Positions 4,610-32,806 of a DNA stretch of 64,000 bases are shown here, piece by piece. How positions within the stretch are numbered: the stretch's first letter is position 1; each line of letters begins with the position of its first letter. The translations under genes were made by a program, and so were the position numbers. Under the pieces are notes generated by a model. It searched no databases. It saw nothing but the letters and a program-made list of their open reading frames with translations, and was not told where the DNA came from. The stretch comes from a phage. The stretch lies in sequence record OR896157.1. One strand, given 5' to 3'.

Positions 4610-6178
4610 ATGAAATTTGACGTCTTAAGTTTGTTCGCGCCGTGGGCCAAAGTCGACGAACAGGAATACGACCAGCAGCTAAATAATAATTTAGAGTCTA
4701 TCACGGCCCCTAAATTTGATGACGGCGCGACAGAGATTGAATCGGAACGTGGAGACATTGCAGGCGCTGGATTATTCCAGAGAATGTACGGTCAAAATGA
4801 ACCGGGAATGAAAAACACCAGGGAGCTTATCGATACTTACCGTCAGTTAATGAATAACTACGAAGTAGATAACGCTGTCCAAGAAATCGTCTTAGATGCA
4901 ATTGTATACGAAGATGATCATCCAGTTGTTTCATTGGATTTAGATAACACTGATTTTAGCCAGGCGATTAAAGACCGTTTACAAGAAGAATTTAACGAAG
5001 TTCTTACTTGTCTGAATTTTGAAAGAAAGGGTCTTGACCATTTCCGTCGCTGGTATGTCGATTCTCGTATCTTCTTCCATAAAATTATTAACCCTAAAAA
5101 ACCGAAAGAAGGTATTCAAGAGCTTCGTCGTTTAGACCCTCGCAATATTCAGTTCGTTCGTGAAGTTATCACTGACACTGAAGCGGGCGTGAAAATTGTT
5201 AAAGGCTACAAAGAATATTTCGTTTATAACACCGGTCACGAGTCTTATCAATGTGACGGTCGAATTTACGACGCTGGAACGAAAATTAAAATTCCAAAGG
5301 CTGCAGTTGTTTATGCACACTCTGGATTAGTTGATTGTTCAGGAAGAAACATCATCGGTTATTTGCACCGAGCTGTTAAACCTGCTAACCAGCTTAAACT
5401 GCTTGAAGACGCAATGGTGATTTATCGTATTACACGTGCGCCAGACCGTCGAGTATTTTACATTGACACAGGGAACATGCCTTCCCGTAAAGCTGCTGCT
5501 CATATGCAACACATCATGAACACCATGAAAAACCGTGTGGTATATGATGCGTCTACTGGTAAAATTAAAAACCAGCAGCACAATATGTCAATGACAGAAG
5601 ATTATTGGTTACAGCGCCGCGATGGTAAAGCTGTTACTGAAATTGATAATATGCCTGGTGCTTCAGGCATGAACGAAATGGACGATGTCCGTTGGTTCAA
5701 GAACAACCTTTACCAAGCATTACGTGTTCCACTGTCTCGTATCCCGAATGACCAACAAAGTGGAGTTCAGTTTGATGCTGGAACTGGAATTACACGTGAC
5801 GAGTTACAATTTGCTAAATTCATTCGTGAACTGCAGCATAAGTTTGAAGAAATTTTCCTCGACCCTCTTAAAACAAACCTTATTTTGAAAGGCGTAATGA
5901 GCGAAGATGATTGGAAAGATGAAATAAATAACATTAAGATAGTATTTCATCGTGACAGTTACTTCACTGAACTTAAAGATGCTGAAGTCACTGAACGCAG
6001 ATTCAATATGCTTCAAATGGCCGAACCGTTTATCGGTAAGTATATTTCTCATCAGACTGCAATGAAGACTATTCTTCAAATGACTGATGAACAAATTGAC
6101 CAAGAGGCTAAGCAAATTGAGCTAGAGTCTAAAGAGGCTCGTTTCCAAGACCCAGACCAAGAACAAGAGGATTTCTAA
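4610..6178 (+). CDS. 20: portal vertex protein gp20
   Basis: 522 aa from first ATG (track start 4598 is TTG); GGAG Shine-Dalgarno 6 nt upstream; T4 gp20 is 524 aa; synteny 19-20-67. Confidence 0.95.
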
Positions 6179-6426
6179 TGGAAGATTTCATCTCCGCACT
6201 CAAATCCAACGACCTCGTTAAAGCTAAGAAAGCCTTTGGTGCTATTATGCTTGAACAGACCGCTGATTTGATTAGCCAACGTCGTGTTGAGATTGCCCAA
6301 TCTATTATGATTGAAGGCGAAGAAAAAGAAGACGACGAAGACGAGAATGATGATTCTGAAGATGAAGGTAAAGAAAAACCTGAATCTAAAGATGAAAAAG
6401 ATTCTGAAGACGAAGACGAAGAATAA
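6178..6426 (+). CDS. 67: prohead core protein gp67
   Basis: 82 aa with strongly acidic E/D-rich C-terminal half, as in T4 gp67; ATG overlaps gene 20 stop. Confidence 0.85.
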   Translation: MEDFISALKSNDLVKAKKAFGAIMLEQTADLISQRRVEIAQSIMIEGEEKEDDEDENDDSEDEGKEKPESKDEKDSEDEDEE

Positions 6427-6435
6427 GGAGTCGCA

Positions 6436-6861
6436 ATGCTGATTGTTCCTGATGAGTACGAAGTCGTACTTGAAAACATCGAAGCAGCTATTCCTGAAGC
6501 CGAATCTCGTTTTAAGCAGTTGTCAGAAGCTCTCGATAAAGCAGACATAAATACAATTGTAGAAAACATGTTGCCAATTGAACCTGAAGTAGCAATTGCT
6601 ATGGGTTCACTGAATGAAGAAATGCAGCTCAATGAATTTATCGTTAAGCATGTTTCTTCTCGTGGAGAAATTACGCGTACTAAAGACCGTAAAACCCGCG
6701 AGCGCCAAGCATTCCAAACAACTGGTTTATCTAAAGCTAAACGTCGCGCTATCGCTCGAAAAGTCGTTAAGTCCAAACGCGCTAATCCGTCTGGTACTGT
6801 ACGAGGCAACCGCAAACGTAAGAAAGCTATGAAACGTCGTCAGGCGTTAGGATTAAGCTAA
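6436..6861 (+). CDS. 68: prohead core protein gp68
   Basis: 141 aa, basic C-terminus; T4 position between 67 and 21. Confidence 0.8.
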
Positions 6862-7502
6862 TGAATGAACCCCAATTACTCATTGAGCATTGGGGTCAAC
6901 CCGGCGAAATTTTGAATGGCGTACCGATGCTTGAGTCATACGATGGCTCAGATGCAGGGCTAAAACCTGGATTATACATCGAAGGCGTGTTCATGCAAGC
7001 CGAAGTAGTTAACCGAAACAAGCGTCTTTATCCAAAGAGAGTATTGGAAAAAGCCGTAGCTAATTATATTAAAGAGCAGGTTTCTACTAAACAAGCACTT
7101 GGAGAATTAAATCACCCACCACGTGCTAACGTTGACCCGATGCAAGCCGCAATCATCATCGAAGATATGTGGTGGAAAGGAAACGATGTTTATGGACGAG
7201 CTCGTATTATTGAAGGTGACCATGGTCCTGGAGATAAACTCGCTGCAAACATTCGTGCTGGCTGGATTCCTGGAGTATCTAGTCGTGGACTAGGCTCATT
7301 AACGGAAACCAATAAAGGCTACCGTATCGTAAACGAAGGATTTAAACTCACCGTTGGCGTTGATGCTGTGTGGGGACCTTCTGCACCAGATGCTTGGGTA
7401 ACTCCGAAGCAGATTTCGGAATCCGCTGAGGCGCAAGTCGCCAAAAAGAATGACGATGAGTCATTTAAAGCTCTCGTAGAGAGTCTCGAAAAAGCATTAT
7501 AA
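6861..7502 (+). CDS. 21: prohead core protease gp21
   Basis: 213 aa (T4 gp21 212 aa); T4 order 68-21-22. Confidence 0.9.
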   Translation: MNEPQLLIEHWGQPGEILNGVPMLESYDGSDAGLKPGLYIEGVFMQAEVVNRNKRLYPKRVLEKAVANYIKEQVSTKQALGELNHPPRANVDPMQAAIIIEDMWWKGNDVYGRARIIEGDHGPGDKLAANIRAGWIPGVSSRGLGSLTETNKGYRIVNEGFKLTVGVDAVWGPSAPDAWVTPKQISESAEAQVAKKNDDESFKALVESLEKAL

Positions 7503-26255: not shown

Positions 26256-28391
26256 TTAAAGAACGAACTTCTCTGGAGTGTCTTCAACATCAATCATTGA
26301 AGCCAGCAGAGCAAGAATCTTGTTACTTTCCGACGTCTTTGTGGACTTCACAAATCCTTCAAAATCAAATGGACCTGATTCAGGCTGAGGTTCGTCACTG
26401 TATTCTACTACTTCACCAGTTTCCATCAGAACATCACCGTCATAAACAACAGCTTCGTCTAATTGGTCAGCAGTCATTACTTCGCCTTGGATGAATTTCT
26501 GATTGTCATGCACGAGACCATCACTATAAGAAGCATCTACAATGTTGTTGACTTTCAGCATGGTACCACGAGGCAGAATAACTTCCATTTCACCTGACAT
26601 ATTACTTAAGTCGCCAGGATAAACCACGTTAACTTTCTCGCCGCCAGTAATAGCCCAACCAATCATGACTCTTGTGCTTTCAGCTTGCTGAACATCTTTA
26701 GCTGCATGAACCTCATCAGTAAGACCTAATTCAGCATAAGTCATAGAAGCTAACTTGACAGTTTCTGCACTGTTATCTGGCTGATTCAATACTGCACGAG
26801 TATTATCAGAAGCCATTGCAACCGCTTGGTTACCTTTCCAACCGCCAAAGATAATTGGAGATAAAGATGTTGAAACATAGTTTCTGAAATAGAATACTCT
26901 GTTCTTAACCATAGCTTCAAAAATTGGTTTACGAACTGACTGTGAACGCCATAAGGTAAGTCCTTCTGGAATTCTGTCGCCGCGTTTAAATGCATCGTCC
27001 AAATTTTTGATAGCAGTAGTAACTTCTTTATAAGACAGTGTATCGTAATTGTCAGCTCTATAACGACCTAAAAGCATATTGTTGATGTCTGAATAACCGG
27101 AACCAACATACTCTTTAATGCCACGTTTTTCTGCATTTGTATATTGAAGAGGCGTACGAGTACGAGTAATATCTTCAATAGTAGCAGAAACGTTTTTAGC
27201 ATAACCTTGAAGAGCTGCTTTAATCATTTTGGTACGTTCAATGTTCCAAAGATTGTTAGCCATTTGCTCTTTATCTTTTGGCTCAAGGTATTGTGGAACT
27301 TTAGTCATGATATGTTCCATTGCTTCATGTTTACGTTCTTCTAAAGAGTCCAAAAGAGTTTGAGTATATGCCTGCATACTCTTAACAGAAGTTAATGGAG
27401 CATTGCCAATTCTTGATTCAAGTTCTTTTACGAATCTTTGTTCAAATTTCTCAGATTGGCTCAATTTAATCGTAGTCAACGATTTTAAATGGAAAATAGC
27501 ACCAGTAGCTGCTAATTGAGCAGAACGAGCTTTAGCCGCTTTAGATTCTACTGCATCCTTCAATTGCTGAGCTTCTGGAATAGGATTTGCCGTTGCGGGT
27601 TTACTGAATTCGGCAGCAGTAGCTTCGTATTTTTCAAATTCTTCTGGGTCATGAATAATGTCAGAAGTTAAAGATTGACTTGCTGCTACTTGACGACGAG
27701 ATACCTTAGCACGAGCAATAACAGATTGGTCGGTACGTTTGTCGTTCTCTTGAGCAATAGTAGCTGCTAACGCTTCTGATTTAGAAACCTGTTTACCTGA
27801 CTTATTGTTGATGTAAACATCGCCAACATCAGTATCAACCTTGGTGAACTCTTCTGTTGATATCTCTGGGATGCCAGGGACGGTTGAGAGGTCAACATTC
27901 TTACGATGAATAAGAACATACACGTACTTCTTATCGTAATCATAGAGTTCTTTCAGGATAACAAAACGACCGCCCAAACGACTCATCACCAAACGGTTGA
28001 TAATCATCTGAACTGCTCGAGCTTGTCCACCCATTTTGCTTTTAGCAATACGGAACATAACTGCATCCATTTTGTATTTCTTCACAGTTTGAGATACTAA
28101 GTCAAACATGGTAGAAATAACACCCAATGGATTACCACCAAGATTTTTCAGCTTAACCAAAGTACCTTTTTCAGATACACCAAGCACAATAGCATGCATC
28201 ATTTTATCGCCAGGTTTAACGTTCTTGTTAACGTCGCCACCGCCGGTGTAAGAACACATACGAAGAGCTACTGAACCTTCTGGAGCAGCAATTGCAAAAA
28301 TCTGTGGAATTTTAGTTTTCGGATAAAGATTAGTGACCGGAAGCATTTCTGAATCCGCGTCAAAAATCTCATTTAATTGAAATTCGGTCAT
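26256..28391 (-). CDS. alt: Alt, ADP-ribosyltransferase
   Basis: 711 aa from ATG at 28391; N-terminal half closely matches T4 Alt as recalled (...LPVTNLYPK.KIPQIF..., LKELYDYDKKYVYVLIHRKNV). Confidence 0.92.
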   Translation of the reverse strand: MTEFQLNEIFDADSEMLPVTNLYPKTKIPQIFAIAAPEGSVALRMCSYTGGGDVNKNVKPGDKMMHAIVLGVSEKGTLVKLKNLGGNPLGVISTMFDLVSQTVKKYKMDAVMFRIAKSKMGGQARAVQMIINRLVMSRLGGRFVILKELYDYDKKYVYVLIHRKNVDLSTVPGIPEISTEEFTKVDTDVGDVYINNKSGKQVSKSEALAATIAQENDKRTDQSVIARAKVSRRQVAASQSLTSDIIHDPEEFEKYEATAAEFSKPATANPIPEAQQLKDAVESKAAKARSAQLAATGAIFHLKSLTTIKLSQSEKFEQRFVKELESRIGNAPLTSVKSMQAYTQTLLDSLEERKHEAMEHIMTKVPQYLEPKDKEQMANNLWNIERTKMIKAALQGYAKNVSATIEDITRTRTPLQYTNAEKRGIKEYVGSGYSDINNMLLGRYRADNYDTLSYKEVTTAIKNLDDAFKRGDRIPEGLTLWRSQSVRKPIFEAMVKNRVFYFRNYVSTSLSPIIFGGWKGNQAVAMASDNTRAVLNQPDNSAETVKLASMTYAELGLTDEVHAAKDVQQAESTRVMIGWAITGGEKVNVVYPGDLSNMSGEMEVILPRGTMLKVNNIVDASYSDGLVHDNQKFIQGEVMTADQLDEAVVYDGDVLMETGEVVEYSDEPQPESGPFDFEGFVKSTKTSESNKILALLASMIDVEDTPEKFVL

Positions 28392-28431
28392 TATGAGTCC
28401 TCTATTGTTTCTTATATTTATAGACAATTAA

Positions 28432-28445: not shown

Positions 28446-28663
28446 TAGACTGCAATAATATTCCTGAAGATTTCAACTTTTCCACCGCCACGAGTAGCAA
28501 TGACCTCGTGTTTGTTGATTCCTGAAACTCGACCATCTGTAAATGATTCTACTTCACCTTGTGGGCGGAATGGTAATTCGACCAAGCTCTGTGTTACATT
28601 AGCGGCTCGTCCTGAGCCTTCACCTGGGTGAGCAATTGTGATAATCTCTAAATAGAATTTCAT
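28445..28663 (-). CDS. hypothetical protein
   Basis: 72 aa; start overlaps the ligase stop. Confidence 0.5.
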   Translation of the reverse strand: MKFYLEIITIAHPGEGSGRAANVTQSLVELPFRPQGEVESFTDGRVSGINKHEVIATRGGGKVEIFRNIIAV

Positions 28664-30105
28664 AGACCAGTAACCTCATGGAAATCGCCCCAGATATCAG
28701 CAAACGTATTTGCTACATCTTTGTCACGACGCATTTTAATTGCAATAGGCAAGAACAGTTTGACATAATCTGTCCGGCCTTCAGCAGCTAACCAACCATT
28801 ACATTCGGATTCAAGAATACCACCGATGTATTCATTTTTATTCAGCCAAATACGAGTACGGTCTAACTCGTGCCAATCTGAAATTTTGTCTTTAAGACCT
28901 GAACCAGCTTTAACTTTAATCAGACCACATTCTGATTCAAGATAAAAACCACCGGCTTTGCCTGGTTGTTTACTATGCTCATATATATCAACAATGCGAA
29001 GGTCAATCGTAATAACTTCTTTGAACTTATAAAGGTTTTTAGAACGAGTGTTTTCCCAGAAAGCACCAATGTTCTTCAGGATAATACCTTCAAGGCCTTC
29101 ATCAACATATTTGCGATAAATGACCTTGGCTTCATCAAGATTATGAACGATGTGGTTCTCAATCAGAATCATCTGAGAGTAACCTTTAACCATCAGTTCT
29201 AATGCACGGAAGCGAACATCATACGCAAATCCAGATTCTTTACCTTCGGAATAAACAACATCCAACGGAACGTAATCCCATACCTGGAATTTCATACCAG
29301 CAGCTTCTTTAGCTGAGATAGTTCCTTTCAGAGATTTATTGGCCAACCCGTTTGACATTGTACGGGATTCTTCTTTGAATTCCTTAGCTTCACTTAACTC
29401 AGGTAAATCGCCAAAGATATCGTCCAACGGACCAGCAGGTTCAACGATAGCATGATAAACGAGTTCACCGTCAATCATTACACCGCCAGGATGGCGTTCA
29501 CGAGCTTCTTTAGTCATTTCGATGAGCTGTTGTTTCAGCAAATCTAAACCAAGATACTCGTTACCAGCACGAGACAGAATTTTTACATCGTCTAATTCAT
29601 CACCACGGATTTCAGCAAATGCTCGTGCGCCATCAGCCTTCAGCTGCGCAAATGCAGGGAACTTAATGTTCTTTTTAATGCCTTTTTCATCGTAAGATGA
29701 AGCAAGCATTTGAGGTTGTTCAGGAATTAGATTTTTCCATACTTTATTCGCAATACTACGGGATGCGCCACAGCGCAAATCACGAAGCAGAACTTTCTTA
29801 ATAACTTCTGCATCCGCATCAGATGTTTGAGATAAAGCAATTTCAAGTTTTTCCTTTGCGGCATTACCGGTCACAACTCGCTTAGCTAATTTTTCTTCTA
29901 GCAAATAAAGCATGTCTTCAAGAGTAAGATGAATATCACCTTTAGGTCTCGTATCCCACTTCTTGATGTAATACTGGAGCTTACCATCATAAGTCATTCT
30001 GAATACTCGCTTCAAAAGCTCATTATCTTTATGACGACGAATGATAGCTTCTTTTTCTTTTGTAGAGCCAATTGAAGCAATTTCATTGATAATATCTAAA
30101 ATCAT
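28660..30105 (-). CDS. 30: ATP-dependent DNA ligase gp30
   Basis: 481 aa from ATG at 30105; near-identical to T4 DNA ligase over long stretches as recalled (...NIKFPAFAQLKADGAR..., ...DYVKLFLPIAI...). Confidence 0.96.
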   Translation of the reverse strand: MILDIINEIASIGSTKEKEAIIRRHKDNELLKRVFRMTYDGKLQYYIKKWDTRPKGDIHLTLEDMLYLLEEKLAKRVVTGNAAKEKLEIALSQTSDADAEVIKKVLLRDLRCGASRSIANKVWKNLIPEQPQMLASSYDEKGIKKNIKFPAFAQLKADGARAFAEIRGDELDDVKILSRAGNEYLGLDLLKQQLIEMTKEARERHPGGVMIDGELVYHAIVEPAGPLDDIFGDLPELSEAKEFKEESRTMSNGLANKSLKGTISAKEAAGMKFQVWDYVPLDVVYSEGKESGFAYDVRFRALELMVKGYSQMILIENHIVHNLDEAKVIYRKYVDEGLEGIILKNIGAFWENTRSKNLYKFKEVITIDLRIVDIYEHSKQPGKAGGFYLESECGLIKVKAGSGLKDKISDWHELDRTRIWLNKNEYIGGILESECNGWLAAEGRTDYVKLFLPIAIKMRRDKDVANTFADIWGDFHEVTGL

Positions 30106-30163
30106 ATTCACCTCGTTTATTGTCCCGAGCGGGTATGACAATTATATCATACCCTTTGTAAAG

Positions 30164-30394
30164 CTATTGACCGCGATACTCACGAATGAGTTCAGCCAAA
30201 GTTCGGTGGTAAAGTACTCCACCATTTTTACGAGTAATGTAGATTGCGCCATTGAACATTGCATCAATCATTTCACGTTGCTTTTGATTATCAGCATGAA
30301 TGTTGCGCGCCTTGAAGAACTCTTCTTTGTTTGCGAAACTTTCAATACGCTTGGTTGCGTCTGTTTGAGGGAACCATTCAATTACGTTAATCAT
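30164..30394 (-). CDS. hypothetical protein
   Basis: 76 aa; start overlaps stop of the HAD-like gene (ATGA). Confidence 0.55.
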   Translation of the reverse strand: MINVIEWFPQTDATKRIESFANKEEFFKARNIHADNQKQREMIDAMFNGAIYITRKNGGVLYHRTLAELIREYRGQ

Positions 30395-31254
30395 ACTTTA
30401 CCTATAGTAGTTTTAGCTGTAGGCTGACGATTCAGATATTCGATACCTGTCCCGATTCCAAAGTTTGGACGATGCACAGGAAGATTTCCTGGATGCTCAT
30501 ACCACGGCTTATAATCAGAAGGACCTGGATTTACCCATTTCTTTGGAAATTCTGGAAACTTATCAAATGGCCAATTCGGAGTAGTCTTTTCAACCTTTTT
30601 GAATAAGTCGCTCAGCTTATCACCAAGGCTTTCCTGGAATTCGCGCTGATTCATCAGACGCTGAACATGTTCCCAGTTATGCACCTTTTCTCCATATTTA
30701 GAGGAGGTGTCTCGCTGACCACGAGGCATAAACATGCAATTGACTTCGCCGCCAAAGACTTCATAAGCTGAATCTACGTGATGAGGAAGGTCATCAATAT
30801 AAGCAACAACTCTGTCGCCATATTTTTCTTTTATTTTCTCGAAGAGCTTGGTTTTTGGCTCAGAGTGGTCGCAGATGAAAGTTTCAAGAAAAGCACCTGG
30901 GAACAAAGCGTTCAAGTTGAATTGACGATTCAGTTTAGCATCAACAGAAGTACCAAGCGCAGTAACCGCAACGAAGTCATACTTATCTTTCAGAGCATTG
31001 ACAACTTTCAGAGCATCGTCGTATGCTGCCAGATAGCGAATGAAATCTGAGCAATTATATTTGACCATCAGCTGTTGAGCAAATTCTTCGTCTACACCAA
31101 ACAGATCTTTTGGCGCAACGAATTGGTCATCAATAATCATTTCAAGAATGTGGTGAACAGGCAGATTGTACTTCTGAGCGAAGTAAGGCAAGCCTGATTG
31201 CCACTTTACTAATACACCGTCTACATCAGTAGAGATAATTGGTTTATTTGACAT
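30391..31254 (-). CDS. HAD-superfamily phosphatase-like protein with about 90-aa C-terminal extension
   Basis: 287 aa; HAD motif I DVDGVL near N-terminus, Thr in VAVTALGT, DD in AYIDDLPHH. Confidence 0.65.
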   Translation of the reverse strand: MSNKPIISTDVDGVLVKWQSGLPYFAQKYNLPVHHILEMIIDDQFVAPKDLFGVDEEFAQQLMVKYNCSDFIRYLAAYDDALKVVNALKDKYDFVAVTALGTSVDAKLNRQFNLNALFPGAFLETFICDHSEPKTKLFEKIKEKYGDRVVAYIDDLPHHVDSAYEVFGGEVNCMFMPRGQRDTSSKYGEKVHNWEHVQRLMNQREFQESLGDKLSDLFKKVEKTTPNWPFDKFPEFPKKWVNPGPSDYKPWYEHPGNLPVHRPNFGIGTGIEYLNRQPTAKTTIGKV

Positions 31255-31420
31255 TTTTAGCCTTCATTTTAGCAATCATGTAAGCCGCGATACAAGATTT
31301 ACCCGGCAGTGATGGTTGTCCAACTCCACTTAATAGAGTAGTTAACTCTCCTACTTTAATACCGCCTTGATTTAAGCGTTTTAAAACATCAAGACCTTTC
31401 ATATCATATTTGACTTGCAT
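31244..31420 (-). CDS. unannotated small ORF (58 aa)
   Basis: ATG-initiated frame MQVKYDMKGLDVLKRL... below the 60-aa track cutoff; ends 11 nt inside the HAD-like gene. Confidence 0.35.
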   Translation of the reverse strand: MQVKYDMKGLDVLKRLNQGGIKVGELTTLLSGVGQPSLPGKSCIAAYMIAKMKAKNVK

Positions 31421-31567
31421 AACATTTTCTCAAAGGTTGTGATACTGTTAGCTGGGCCACTTAGAGTTATCTCTATGAACCCAGGCTGACTTGAAGGACC
31501 AATTCTGTATATACATATGGCTAATGTTCTTGCGTATTCCAGAAGGTCCTTCGTTAACCCTCTTACA

Positions 31568-31771
31568 TTAAACTGTTTCATAAACTTCGTCATTAGCAGC
31601 TTTAAGAGGCTCGATTTCACATTCTAAACGAATATCAGTATTCCCGTCAACCCATTGTACTTCATAAGCAGGTTGAACACCATATTCTGGAATTGATTCA
31701 GCAGTATCACAGATGACTCCCGGAATACCGCCTTTGCGCAGCTGTACTGGTTGTAAAATGTGGTATTTCAT
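31568..31771 (-). CDS. hypothetical protein
   Basis: 67 aa; start forms ATGA overlap with the upstream 55-aa ORF. Confidence 0.5.
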   Translation of the reverse strand: MKYHILQPVQLRKGGIPGVICDTAESIPEYGVQPAYEVQWVDGNTDIRLECEIEPLKAANDEVYETV

Positions 31772-31935
31772 TCTGCCACCGCATAAGTTAGAATTTGATG
31801 AAAGAAATCAGGGCATTCAAGCTGATACTTGACTTCTGTATCAGAGACAGTTACGCCCAGCACTTCAATCATCGGATTGCTCAACATGCCGCGTTCAAAT
31901 TCAGGTGCTTTATTAAGAGGAATAGTGATAATCAT
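31768..31935 (-). CDS. unannotated small ORF (55 aa)
   Basis: Frame MIITIPLNKAPEFERG... coupled at both ends: TAATG with the upstream gene and ATGA with the downstream gene. Confidence 0.5.
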   Translation of the reverse strand: MIITIPLNKAPEFERGMLSNPMIEVLGVTVSDTEVKYQLECPDFFHQILTYAVAE

Positions 31936-32405
31936 TACAGAGTCTCCAATACAGTTTTAACTTTAGCTTCAGCAACTTGTTTAACAACCAGAACACGAAC
32001 ACCTTCAACTGCATTACGAATTTGCTTTTGAGCTGCTTGGTTGGCTTCCTCTTCAGTGTAAGGACCAACGCAGAAAGGCTGTTGAGAGCGATTAGTTGGA
32101 ATAGTCATCATCCAGAAATCTTTTGCATCAGACTCTGTTGGTTTAACTTCTTCAAGGTACTTGTGAACATCAGTAGCCAAGAAGAAGCACCATACTATAT
32201 TGAATACACCAACATTAGCATGATGAAGTTTACCATCAACATCGATTGCAATGATATTTCCACCACTATCAACCTTTTTGACTGTGAATGGAGTTAGTCC
32301 ATTATTCAACAGCTTAAGAAGTTCTTCAGAATAAGAACTTCCGCGATTTTTAAGACTACCAATACCAGTTTCAGTCAACTTAAACTCTTTATCAACAATA
32401 CACAT
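31935..32405 (-). CDS. hypothetical protein
   Basis: 156 aa from ATG with GAGGAAA Shine-Dalgarno (track ORF runs upstream through a hairpin). Confidence 0.6.
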   Translation of the reverse strand: MCIVDKEFKLTETGIGSLKNRGSSYSEELLKLLNNGLTPFTVKKVDSGGNIIAIDVDGKLHHANVGVFNIVWCFFLATDVHKYLEEVKPTESDAKDFWMMTIPTNRSQQPFCVGPYTEEEANQAAQKQIRNAVEGVRVLVVKQVAEAKVKTVLETL

Positions 32406-32423
32406 AACTATTTCCTCAAGTAG

Positions 32424-32439
32424 AGGGCCCGAAGGCCCT
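32424..32439 (-). terminator. C(UUCG)G hairpin (intercistronic)
   Basis: Plus AGGGCC-CGAA-GGCCCT; no U-run. Confidence 0.4.
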
Positions 32440-32443
32440 AAAT

Positions 32444-32806
32444 TTAGATTACGAATTCGTTTGAAACGATATCCCAAATTGCTTCACGCTGTTCTTCAGT
32501 TGTTTTCTGACCAAGAACGTGACGCAGATAAAGTTTAACCAGAAGTTTGCGATTGTCTCCGTTCCAAGAAGGATGAGTTCCTAAATCGCGTTTACGGTGG
32601 TCATCATGAAAACCAACAGAAATGACTGAACCTTTGAGTTTAACATCTAAAGTTGGGCCATTTTCAAAACTGATGAAGACGTAGTTATCTTCCCAGTACA
32701 TATCGATTTGAGCAACTGTGCCATTTTTATGTTCCCAGAGTAAAGTTGTTGAAACGTCCCATGCATTATCTTGAACGTATTTCTTTTTGAAGTTAGTGTA
32801 ATCCAT
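32444..32806 (-). CDS. hypothetical protein
   Basis: 120 aa from ATG with GGAG Shine-Dalgarno; early-promoter-like motif upstream. Confidence 0.6.
   Translation of the reverse strand: MDYTNFKKKYVQDNAWDVSTTLLWEHKNGTVAQIDMYWEDNYVFISFENGPTLDVKLKGSVISVGFHDDHRKRDLGTHPSWNGDNRKLLVKLYLRHVLGQKTTEEQREAIWDIVSNEFVI

What the first reader, a model, noticed from the sequence alone, without database searches (positions are those of the whole stretch)
30391..31254. HAD-like phosphatase with an uncharacterised C-terminal extension
Motif I (DVDGVL) and the downstream Thr and DD motifs fit a HAD-fold phosphatase of about 190 aa, but the protein continues for about 90 more residues rich in Pro, Trp and aromatic residues (PNWPFDKFPEFPKKWVNPGPSDYKPWYEHPGNLP). 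It could be a nucleotidase or phosphatase for nucleotide-pool or signalling-nucleotide manipulation, with an added targeting domain.
Basis: partly seen in the sequence, partly recalled or inferred. Interest (0 to 1): 0.4.

Follow-up and report, generated by a model that had tools for sequence, protein, structure and literature searches.

The report
T4 gene 30.2 phosphatase with floppy tail
This is the Enterobacter-phage copy of T4 gene 30.2, a widely conserved but never tested phage enzyme that looks like a nucleotide-dephosphorylating (HAD-type) phosphatase and carries a floppy, fast-evolving proline/tryptophan-rich tail. It is a reasonable target for experiments but is not a new kind of system.

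Summary
Window 30391-31254 (minus strand) encodes a 287-aa protein with all four HAD phosphatase motifs (D10/D12, T98, K134, D154-D155), followed by a Pro/Trp-rich C-terminus.

It is the ortholog of T4 gene 30.2 (PHROG 420). The window comes from a Karamvirus (PG7/CC31-like). Homologs occur in 1,438 phage records and almost always sit just upstream of the DNA ligase gene.

The most likely function is a Mg2+-dependent (deoxy)nucleoside-monophosphate phosphatase. This is inferred, not shown.

The "extension" is not a domain. Residues 194-223 form a confident helix, and residues 224-287 are predicted disordered.

The tail is specific to certain lineages. About a third of close homologs, and most distant ones, lack it. 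It is under weaker purifying selection than the core (pN/pS 0.30 against 0.01). It ends in a short motif, GTG-I-E-Y-L-x-x-Q-P-T, shared with the T4 clade, which is probably a docking peptide.

Some database records already label this family as HAD or nucleotidase. I found no functional study. Interest is modest.

The parts
30391..31254 (-). Complete CDS (287 aa plus stop). Ortholog of T4/CC31 gene 30.2.
   Evidence: ORF list. PHROG 420 at E 1.6e-76. 94.8% nucleotide identity to the CC31 gene annotated '30.2'.
30676..31254 (-). HAD catalytic core plus C1 cap (residues 1-193).
31213..31227 (-). HAD motif I, D10-V-D12-G-V14 (nucleophile Asp and Asp+2 general acid/base).
   Evidence: D10 and D12 are present in 129/129 family representatives.
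30991..31209 (-). Helical C1-type cap inserted between motifs I and II (residues 16-88). It contains the conserved aromatics W18, F45 and Y66 and the YNxSDFIRYL block.
   Evidence: Helices H22-28 through H79-88 in the model. Position 18 is aromatic in 129/129 and position 66 in 128/129. Alignment to mouse cdN (2jao) puts W18, F45 and Y66 opposite F, F and Y of cdN (that alignment is not significant on its own).
30961..30963 (-). HAD motif II, Thr98.
   Evidence: T in 113 and S in 16 of 129.
30853..30855 (-). HAD motif III, Lys134.
   Evidence: K in 129/129.
30790..30795 (-). HAD motif IV, D154-D155 (Mg2+ ligands).
   Evidence: Position 154 is D (92) or E (37). D155 is present in 128/129.
30586..30675 (-). 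Long C-terminal helix, residues 194-223, starting at conserved W194.
   Evidence: Helix H194-223 with pLDDT about 91. pN/pS 0.052. W194 is conserved in 101/129.
30394..30585 (-). Pro/Trp/aromatic-rich, predicted disordered tail, residues 224-287.
   Evidence: pLDDT about 47-58 and below 50. 21.9% Pro+Trp, the compositional extreme of the window. pN/pS 0.30. Present in only part of the family.
30418..30453 (-). Short conserved motif in the tail, G268-T-G-I-E-Y-L-N-R-Q-P-T279.
   Evidence: The pattern [IVLT]E[YW][LWYFM]xx[QR]P[TKS] occurs 10-20 residues from the C-terminus in 17 of the 105 close cluster representatives, including the T4 clade representative P0032. E272 is invariant and Y273, P278 and T279 are at least 90% conserved in the 19-sequence subset.
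30164..30394 (-). Downstream 76-aa ORF. Its start overlaps the 30.2 stop by 4 nt. It is context, not part of the enzyme.
   Evidence: Conserved at 64-97% identity in Karamvirus and Moonvirus-like loci. No Pfam hit.
28660..30141 (-). ATP-dependent DNA ligase (T4 gene 30), the conserved downstream neighbour.
   Evidence: Pfam DNA_ligase_A_M at E 2.8e-25. A ligase homolog lies downstream on the same strand in 72 of 78 related loci.

Best explanation
The gene is the Karamvirus ortholog of T4 gene 30.2. It belongs to a near-core family of T4-like phages.

The protein is a Mg2+-dependent phosphomonoesterase of the HAD superfamily. It has a helical C1 cap and belongs to a divergent branch related to the NT5C / 5'(3')-deoxyribonucleotidase family.

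The most likely mechanism has four steps:
1. Asp10 attacks the phosphate of a small capped-in substrate, most probably a (deoxy)nucleoside monophosphate whose base stacks on conserved cap aromatics (W18, F45, Y66).
2. Asp12 acts as the general acid/base.
3. Thr98 and Lys134 hold the phosphate.
4. Asp154 and Asp155 hold the Mg2+ ion.
The enzyme would thereby trim or clean the nucleotide pool of the infected cell.

The C-terminal 64 residues are not a domain. They form an intrinsically disordered, fast-evolving Pro/Trp-rich tail whose short conserved motif (GTGIEYLxxQPT) probably docks the enzyme onto a partner protein.

Shown here: orthology, fold, motif conservation, predicted disorder, the distribution of tails, and synteny. 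Inferred: the substrate class, the biological role, and the docking function of the tail.
For: Orthology and distribution:
- PHROG 420 at E 1.6e-76.
- 94.8% nucleotide identity to CC31 '30.2', with the same neighbours.
- 1,438 phage records have a homolog, against 1,649 with a T4-type ligase.
- Only one hit among 185,579 species genomes, and that is a 178-kb T4-like contig.

Fold:
- AlphaFold2 mean pLDDT 82 and pTM 0.70.
- Foldseek PDB top hits are 3bwv_B and 3bwv_A, at 8.7e-7 and 9.9e-7.

Link to NT5C:
- Profile A2 against the PDB gives 3bwv at E 2.9e-7 over the full length, followed by the yeast pyrimidine nucleotidase SSM1/SDT1.
- 27 of 129 extended-family members hit Pfam NT5C at E <= 1e-3, which is the most frequent family.
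- The bridge protein L076:3998-4567 matches the 30.2 profile at hhalign probability 99%, E 5.5e-18, and passes the NT5C gathering score at 29.4 against 24.8 bits.

Catalytic competence:
- All four motifs are 99-100% conserved across 129 representatives that are mostly only 20-30% identical to the query.
- Core pN/pS is 0.012.

Cap aromatics:
- Position 18 is aromatic in 129/129 and position 66 in 128/129.
- Intracellular 5'-nucleotidases are Mg-dependent HAD enzymes whose C1 cap stacks the base between aromatic residues (PMC3946280).

Tail:
- Disordered in two models.
- Variable or absent in relatives.
- Still under purifying selection, pN/pS 0.30.
- Motif conserved across genera.

Precedent: phage T5 Dmp is a dNMP 5'-phosphatase with a proven role (bioRxiv 10.1101/2024.12.20.629578).
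Against: - No biochemical data exist for any member. I found no paper on gp30.2.
- The query itself gets no Pfam HAD or NT5C hit. The nearest solved relative, 3bwv, is a structural-genomics entry whose name is itself only a prediction.
- T4-like phages recycle host dNMPs into their own DNA, so an unselective dNMP phosphatase would be wasteful. The real substrate may be narrower or different.
- The docking role of the tail is pure inference, and no partner is identified.
- The correspondence of W18, F45 and Y66 to the substrate-binding aromatics of cdN rests on an alignment with E about 1 and on my recollection of the cdN/mdN literature.
Confidence: 0.55

Rival explanations
1. It is a small-molecule HAD phosphatase, but its substrate is not a nucleotide. 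Candidates are a sugar phosphate or another phosphorylated metabolite, for example one feeding DNA-modification sugars or general metabolism.
Against: The sequence-based links all point to nucleotidases: 3bwv, SSM1/SDT1 and Pfam NT5C. The family is found in phages with different DNA modifications (T4, RB69-like, Acinetobacter, Aeromonas and Vibrio phages), so a modification-specific sugar pathway is unlikely.
Confidence: 0.2
2. It is a nucleic-acid end-processing phosphatase that works with the adjacent DNA ligase. It would remove 3'-phosphates, or another blocking group, from nicks so that they can be sealed, in the way the HAD phosphatase domain of T4 polynucleotide kinase/phosphatase does.
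For: Linkage to the ligase gene is deeply conserved. A ligase lies downstream on the same strand in 72 of 78 loci. In 25 of these the gap is 70 nt or less, and some overlap, even where the ligase is only 34-40% identical. The same arrangement is seen in L079. Phage polynucleotide kinase/phosphatases appear among the BFVD fold hits (E about 1e-4).
Against: A helical C1 cap of about 70 residues closes over the active site. By established knowledge of HAD enzymes, those acting on macromolecules are typically capless. There is no kinase domain and no P-loop in the sequence. Nucleotidases score better than PNK phosphatases in BFVD. Gene order in T4-like genomes is conserved in general, so synteny is weak evidence of a shared function.
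Confidence: 0.08
3. It is a nucleotidase whose selected role is counter-defence. It would deplete a nucleotide precursor or a phosphomonoester-bearing immune signal, as T5 Dmp does when it blocks the Kongming system by removing dAMP.
For: T5 Dmp is a phage dNMP phosphatase that neutralises Kongming, and Dmp homologs co-occur with phage dNMP kinases (bioRxiv 10.1101/2024.12.20.629578). By established knowledge, T4-like phages encode a dNMP kinase (gp1). In T4 the 30.2 region also holds the counter-defence genes alt and 30.3/AdfN (PMC11825919). Fast-evolving, lineage-specific tails fit an arms-race interface.
Against: The family is not detectably related to T5 Dmp (hhalign probability 3.3%). No defence phenotype has been reported for 30.2. 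The Kongming paper does not mention T4-type phages. The catalytic core is extremely conserved and near-universal in T4-like phages, which fits a housekeeping role better.
Confidence: 0.12
4. The tail has no function of its own. It would be a tolerated, drifting low-complexity extension created by stop-codon or indel turnover in a hyperplastic genome region.
For: 35 of 101 close representatives, and most distant ones, lack it. At least four unrelated tail types exist, and some are replaced by other sequences. Tail-less versions occur even in phages whose ligase is about 80% identical to this one. The tail is predicted disordered. The tail alone is detectable by tblastn in only 55 phage records.
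Against: pN/pS is 0.30, not about 1, among Karamvirus sequences (a small sample of five sequences). The E-Y-x-x-x-Q/R-P-T motif and W240 are retained across clades that are only about 50% identical in the core and otherwise unalignable in the tail.
Confidence: 0.3

Closest known systems
T4 gene 30.2 family (PHROG 420; 'conserved hypothetical protein 30.2' in CC31, Acj9, Acj61)
   Same: Full-length match to the family profile (E 1.6e-76). About 49% amino-acid identity to T4-clade proteins across the core. Same position just upstream of DNA ligase gene 30. Shares the C-terminal GxG-[IV]-E-Y-L-x-x-[QR]-P-T motif with the T4-clade representative P0032.
   Different: Nothing essential, because this is a member. 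The middle of the tail differs from T4's and cannot be aligned with it.
NT5C / 5'(3')-deoxyribonucleotidase family (Pfam PF06941; human cdN and mdN; S. epidermidis 3bwv)
   Same: HAD core with a helical C1 cap. Motifs DxDGV, T, K and DD. Best PDB relative by both profile (E 2.9e-7) and Foldseek. Intermediate family members pass the Pfam NT5C threshold. Aromatic residues lie at the cap positions that align with the F/F/Y of cdN.
   Different: The query itself gets no PF06941 hit and is only 14-20% identical to the solved members. The family has its own invariant R110 and N113, for which the 3bwv alignment shows K and W instead. It also has an extra C-terminal helix and a disordered tail. Activity is untested.
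Phage T5 Dmp, deoxynucleoside-5'-monophosphatase
   Same: A phage-encoded small phosphatase with a DxDGT motif and a later IDD motif (read directly from the sequence). It has proven dNMP phosphatase activity and a role in nucleotide-pool control and anti-Kongming defence (bioRxiv 10.1101/2024.12.20.629578). It is a functional analogue of what is proposed here.
   Different: No detectable homology to the 30.2 family beyond generic HAD motifs (hhalign probability 3.3%). No Pfam hit. It is a pre-early gene in the first-step-transfer DNA of a phage that does not reuse host dNMPs.
HAD phosphatase domain of T4 polynucleotide kinase/3'-phosphatase (PseT)
   Same: The same superfamily and the same DxD chemistry, in the same kind of phage. 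It acts before a ligase. Phage PNK/phosphatases appear among the fold hits.
   Different: PseT's phosphatase is fused to a P-loop kinase and acts on polynucleotide ends. The 30.2 protein has a closed C1 cap and neither a kinase domain nor a P-loop. Its fold hits to PNK/phosphatases are weaker than those to nucleotidases.

Membership tests
HAD superfamily (phosphatase type) | Motif I DxDx[TV], with the nucleophile Asp and the Asp+2 general acid/base | tested here: met
   D10-V-D12-G-V14. D10 and D12 are present in 129/129 representatives.
HAD superfamily (phosphatase type) | Motif II Thr/Ser, motif III Lys, and motif IV acidic pair (DD/ED) | tested here: met
   Position 98 is T (113) or S (16). 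K134 is present in 129/129. Position 154 is D (92) or E (37). D155 is present in 128/129.
HAD superfamily (phosphatase type) | Rossmann-like alpha/beta core fold | tested here: met
HAD superfamily (phosphatase type) | Mg2+-dependent phosphoryl transfer through an aspartyl-phosphate intermediate | not testable with these tools
   Needs an enzyme assay of wild type against D10N.
NT5C / 5'(3')-deoxyribonucleotidase (PF06941) | Score at or above the Pfam gathering threshold for PF06941 | tested here: not met
   The query gets no hit at E <= 1. Eight of the 50 homologs in alignment A1 get only sub-threshold hits, the best at E 0.0053. I therefore do not file it as a PF06941 member, only as a related branch.
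NT5C / 5'(3')-deoxyribonucleotidase (PF06941) | Homology to bona fide members through profiles or intermediates | tested here: met
   Profile A2 against 3bwv gives E 2.9e-7 over the full length. L076:3998-4567 scores 29.4 bits against the 24.8-bit cut-off for NT5C and matches the 30.2 profile at hhalign E 5.5e-18. 27 of 129 members hit NT5C at E <= 1e-3.
NT5C / 5'(3')-deoxyribonucleotidase (PF06941) | Helical C1 cap between motifs I and II, carrying aromatic residues that stack the nucleobase | tested here: inconclusive
   The cap helices 22-88 are present. Positions 18 and 66 are aromatic in at least 128 of 129. They align with F/F/Y of mouse cdN, but that alignment has E 1.1, and the roles of the cdN residues come from memory. 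No ligand docking or inspection of coordinates was possible.
NT5C / 5'(3')-deoxyribonucleotidase (PF06941) | Phosphatase activity on 5'- and 2'(3')-(deoxy)nucleoside monophosphates | not testable with these tools
   Needs biochemistry.
T4 30.2 family (PHROG 420) | Full-length match to the family profile | tested here: met
   E 1.6e-76. Residues 1-280 match profile positions 10-265 of 267.
T4 30.2 family (PHROG 420) | Position upstream of, and co-oriented with, DNA ligase gene 30 in T4-like genomes | tested here: met
   In the window, 30.2 lies at 30391-31254 and the ligase at 28660-30141, both on the minus strand. 72 of 78 related loci have the same arrangement.
T5 Dmp family | Detectable sequence homology to T5 Dmp | tested here: not met
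   hhalign of A2 against T5 Dmp gives probability 3.3%.
T4 PseT-type polynucleotide 3'-phosphatase | Capless HAD domain fused to a P-loop polynucleotide kinase | tested here: not met
   A cap of about 70 residues is present in the model. The 287-aa sequence has no kinase domain and no GxxxxGK[ST] motif.

The most novel reading that the evidence does not exclude
The conserved C-terminal motif (GTGIEYLxxQPT here; other motifs such as LRAYY or PMTPCD...LLNxxVxND in other clades) is a lineage-matched docking peptide. It would tether a nucleotidase to a specific phage or host machine, such as the replisome/ligase, the dNTP-synthesising complex, or a host immune sensor. The enzyme would then act locally, either as a nucleotide proof-cleaning step coupled to DNA synthesis and sealing, or as a counter-defence that removes the precursor of a nucleotide-derived immune signal, analogous to T5 Dmp against Kongming.
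Probability: 0.15. Interest if true: 0.6.

Novelty: new member of a known kind. Interest (0 to 1): 0.3.

Why it matters
Gene 30.2 is one of the few genes in the variable 30-31 region that almost all T4-like phages keep. It occurs in 1,438 records and is always next to the ligase. Even so, it has no assigned function in the best-studied phage there is.

This work shows that it is a catalytically intact, NT5C-related HAD phosphatase. That turns an "unknown" gene into a directly testable enzyme, through a substrate panel, a D10N control and a knockout.

If it is a nucleotidase, it adds a missing catabolic step to the classic T4 nucleotide-metabolism scheme. Given the T5 Dmp precedent, it may also bear on nucleotide-based phage defence.

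The swappable disordered tails would be an example of short linear motifs evolving in phage enzymes.

None of this is a new principle. The fold and the probable chemistry are ordinary, and some database records already carry a HAD or nucleotidase label.

Tried and rejected
- Direct Pfam scan of the query: only a spurious ADH_Fe_C hit at E 0.029.
- phmmer of the query against the PDB: nothing meaningful. The 50-sequence profile was still insignificant, with cdN at E 1.1. Only the 129-sequence profile reached significance.
- NCBIfam gave only weak HAD hits.
- Literature: four searches aimed at gp30.2/30.2 and one for HAD/deoxyribonucleotidase in T4-like phages found no functional study.
- Homology to T5 Dmp was tested and rejected.
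- The afdb50 fold library was unavailable.
- The genome-contig scan with A2 failed for lack of conserved stretches. With A1 it found only one locus, a phage-like contig, so there is no informative cellular context.
- A second AlphaFold2 run on an alignment of only motif-bearing sequences, to see whether the tail motif docks back onto the core: the tail stayed below pLDDT 50 and the whole model got worse.
- The promoter and terminator scan around the gene was at chance level.
- Fusion partners of distant homologs (P0163, P0188, P0108, P0153, P0107) gave no Pfam clue.
- An apparent lack of synonymous changes in codons 224-240 among five Karamvirus sequences was set aside. The same stretch is the most variable part of the tail in relatives 90-94% identical.
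Full report
**1. What is at the coordinates**

Window 30391..31254 on the minus strand is a 287-aa ORF with an ATG start. It sits in a tight run of co-oriented genes:
- Its first codons overlap the end of a 58-aa upstream ORF (31244-31420) by 11 nt.
- Its stop overlaps the start of a 76-aa downstream ORF (30164-30394) by 4 nt.
- Next comes an ATP-dependent DNA ligase (28660-30141; Pfam DNA_ligase_A_M at E 2.8e-25).
- After that comes an Alt-type ADP-ribosyltransferase (26256-28427).

The DNA is 95-98% identical to Enterobacter phages of the genus Karamvirus (PG7, CC31 and relatives). In CC31 the gene is annotated "30.2, conserved hypothetical protein", and it sits in the T4-type order 30.5 - 30.2 - (small ORF) - 30 - alt. 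It matches PHROG 420 ("unknown function") end to end at E 1.6e-76. The finding is therefore the Karamvirus ortholog of T4 gene 30.2.

**2.

The sequence has DVDGVL at residues 10-15, T98 in VTALG, K134, and D154-D155 in YIDDL. I built an alignment of 129 cluster representatives, most only 20-30% identical to the query. They were drawn from 1,007 profile hits in a library of 1.84 billion proteins. Conservation at the motif positions is:
- D10, D12 and K134: 129/129.
- Position 98: T (113) or S (16).
- Position 154: D (92) or E (37).
- D155: 128/129.

This is the complete phosphatase-type HAD motif set, held by selection. The core evolves under very strong purifying selection among Karamvirus sequences, with pN/pS 0.012.

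The quoted Pro/Trp-rich peptide is residues 226-259. The last 64 residues are 21.9% Pro+Trp. That is more than any of 14,692 windows of the same size in the other long ORFs of the 64-kb window.

**3. Fold**

An AlphaFold2 model built on 50 homologs has mean pLDDT 82 and pTM 0.70, with most of residues 1-220 above 86. Its layout is:
- a five-stranded Rossmann-like core (E6-10, E93-99, E122-128, E149-154, E172-175);
- an all-helical insertion (residues 16-88) between motif I and motif II, which is a C1-type cap;
- a long C-terminal helix, 194-223.

**4. Which HAD branch**

Sequence evidence needed depth to become significant.
- The query alone hits no HAD model in Pfam and nothing in the PDB.
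- The 50-sequence profile gives cdN only at E 1.1.
- The 129-sequence profile hits 3bwv at E 2.9e-7 over its full length. Next come the yeast pyrimidine nucleotidase SSM1/SDT1 (about 2e-4) and, more weakly, an XMP phosphatase, mdN and cdN.
- Scanned one by one, 27 of the 129 members match Pfam NT5C at E <= 1e-3 (best 4.2e-10). That is more than match any other family.

One distant homolog from a viral contig, L076:3998-4567, forms a bridge between the two families. It matches the 30.2 profile at hhalign probability 99%, E 5.5e-18. It also passes the NT5C gathering score, at 29.4 against 24.8 bits.

I therefore place the 30.2 family as a divergent sister branch of the NT5C nucleotidases. I do not file the query as a PF06941 member, because it fails that model's threshold.

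Position 18 in the cap is aromatic in all 129 representatives, and position 66 in 128 of them. Position 45 is F, Y, H or W in 110 of 129. In the alignment to mouse cdN, which is weak on its own, these positions fall opposite F, F and Y. From memory of the cdN/mdN structures, those residues line the nucleoside pocket. The general principle is documented in PMC3946280: HAD 5'-nucleotidases hold the base between aromatic residues of a C1 cap.

R110 (129/129) and N113 (124/129) are family-specific invariants of unknown role.

**5. The C-terminal "extension"**

It has two parts.
- Residues 194-223 form a confident helix (pLDDT about 91) that starts at conserved W194. This helix evolves slowly (pN/pS 0.052) and is part of the fold.
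They are also disordered in a second model built only from sequences that share the terminal motif (pLDDT below 50). That second model did not dock the tail onto the core.

Across relatives the tail is the variable part:
- Of 101 close cluster representatives, 35 end within 15 residues of the core, 11 have a short tail and 55 have a tail longer than 50 residues.
- Most of the 150 best-scoring distant representatives are about 190-225 aa.
- In 77 loci from viral contigs, 30 carry a tail and 47 do not. Tail-less versions occur even in phages whose ligase is about 80% identical to this one, so tails have been gained or lost repeatedly.

There are at least four unrelated tail types:
- the type seen here, ending in G-T-G-[IVL]-E-[YW]-[LWY]-x-x-[QR]-P-[TK];
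- a "...L-R-A-Y-Y" type;
- a "PMTPCD...LLNxxVxND" type;
- a "TPLRPF...KWTIK" type.

In addition, Yersinia phage phiR1-RT-like proteins carry an unrelated region of about 110 aa, and one protein carries DUF3045.

The tail of this protein is found by tblastn only at this gene's C-terminus. It appears in 55 records, essentially Karamvirus, with faint matches in Moonvirus-like Citrobacter phages and some Escherichia phages.

The tail is nonetheless not free of constraint. pN/pS is 0.30 (five sequences, so this is rough). The terminal motif sits 10-20 residues from the C-terminus in 17 of 105 representatives, spanning several genera and including the T4-clade cluster P0032, which has 1,386 members. 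Within that subset E272 is invariant, and W240, Y273, P278 and T279 are at least 90% conserved, while everything between them is unalignable.

This is the signature of a disordered linker carrying a short linear motif. I read it as a probable docking peptide. That is an inference, and no partner is known.

**6. Genomic context**

A 30.2 homolog occurs in 1,438 of 50,697 phage records, across Escherichia, Klebsiella, Shigella, Aeromonas, Acinetobacter, Vibrio and other phages. That compares with 1,649 records that have a T4-type ligase.

In 72 of 78 related loci a ligase homolog lies downstream on the same strand. In 25 of these the gap is 70 nt or less, and some overlap, even where the ligase is only 34-40% identical.

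A pattern-based scan of one genome from each of 185,579 bacterial and archaeal species found a single locus. It is a 178-kb contig in a Flagellimonas marina assembly, with a T4-type ligase 11 nt downstream, so it is a T4-like phage contig. Close relatives are thus essentially confined to phages.

The linkage to ligase is striking. However, gene order in T4-like genomes is conserved in general, and the closed C1 cap argues for a small substrate rather than DNA ends. I keep a ligase-coupled end-phosphatase only as a minor rival.

**7. What is known**

Four literature searches aimed at gp30.2/30.2, plus one for HAD/deoxyribonucleotidase in T4-like phages, found no study of its function.

The neighbouring T4 gene 30.3 is AdfN, a NADAR-type anti-DarTG1 factor (PMC11825919). 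No 30.3 is annotated at the corresponding position in CC31.

Several database records already name homologs:
- "HAD-superfamily hydrolase";
- [quoted passage not shown];
- "putative phosphatase";
- "5'-3' deoxyribonucleotidase".

The fold assignment is therefore not new. The systematic evidence and the anatomy of the tail are what this analysis adds.

A functional precedent exists in T5 Dmp, a phage dNMP 5'-phosphatase. It depletes dAMP and thereby blocks the Kongming defence system (bioRxiv 10.1101/2024.12.20.629578). Read by eye, T5 Dmp has its own DxDGT and IDD motifs. It is not detectably related to the 30.2 family (hhalign probability 3.3%).

**8. Verdict**

The most likely mechanism is a Mg2+-dependent (deoxy)nucleoside-monophosphate phosphatase acting on the nucleotide pool of the infected cell. 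My confidence levels are:
- about 0.95 for HAD phosphomonoesterase;
- about 0.85 for relatedness to NT5C;
- about 0.55 for a nucleotide substrate;
- about 0.35 for tail docking.

It is an uncharacterised member of a known kind of enzyme. It is worth a bench test because the gene is near-universal in T4-like phages, but it is not surprising to a specialist. Interest: 0.3.

Noticed in passing
L076:3998-4567 (IMG/VR contig IMGVR_UViG_3300021957_000121): A 189-aa distant homolog (26% identity) that passes the Pfam NT5C threshold. It is flanked by a T4-type RNase H / 5'-3' exonuclease and a PD-(D/E)XK nuclease, so it sits in a replication/recombination module rather than next to a ligase.
   Followed up: partly
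L079 (NZ_JBHSCL010000010.1, Flagellimonas marina assembly, 178,077-bp contig), 5001-7113: The only hit in 185,579 species genomes. It is a 30.2 homolog (47% identity) followed 11 nt later by a T4-type ligase (38% identity), on a contig the size of a T4-like phage genome. It is probably a phage genome or a contaminant inside a bacterial assembly.
   Followed up: partly
window 30164-30394 (-): A 76-aa ORF whose start overlaps the 30.2 stop by 4 nt. It is conserved at 64-97% identity in Karamvirus and Moonvirus-like loci and has no Pfam hit. Its C-terminal YHRTLAELI stretch faintly resembles the DUF3045-bearing C-terminus of the fusion-like homolog P0058 (11 aa, E 0.006), which hints that some 30.2 'tails' are read-through fusions with the downstream gene.
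   Followed up: partly
proteins P0163 (591 aa), P0188 (660 aa), P0108 (430 aa), P0153 (365 aa), P0107 (347 aa): Distant family members fused to large extra regions without Pfam matches. By eye, P0163 has an N-terminal 'GDLDIII' nucleotidyltransferase-like stretch and P0153 a C-terminal 'NGRHR' ParB/Srx-like stretch. These could be functional hints or gene-calling artefacts.
   Followed up: no
proteins P0034, P0047 (Yersinia phage phiR1-RT / TG1 type); loci L021, L071: In these phages the Pro/Trp tail is replaced by an unrelated C-terminal region of about 110 aa, which looks like a folded domain.
   Followed up: no
window 30535-30585 (-), codons 224-240 of the gene: There are no nucleotide differences at all among the five Karamvirus sequences compared, although pS is about 0.2 in the rest of the gene. 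The same stretch is the most variable part of the tail in relatives 90-94% identical. This is probably a shared recombinant segment rather than a constraint.
   Followed up: partly
L080:124-858 (-), phage T5 dmp: T5 Dmp shows HAD-like motifs by eye (IWDLDGTII, ICTAR, MIDD) but hits no Pfam family and is not detectably related to the 30.2 family. Phages thus appear to have recruited dNMP-phosphatase-like HAD enzymes more than once.
   Followed up: partly
window 31244-32477 (-) and L001 (CC31 117313-130182): The T4 neighbour 30.3 (AdfN, a NADAR anti-DarTG1 factor, PMC11825919) is not annotated between 30.2 and 30.5 in CC31. The corresponding stretch of the window holds only small ORFs without Pfam hits. 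I did not check whether a NADAR gene lies elsewhere in the window.
   Followed up: no
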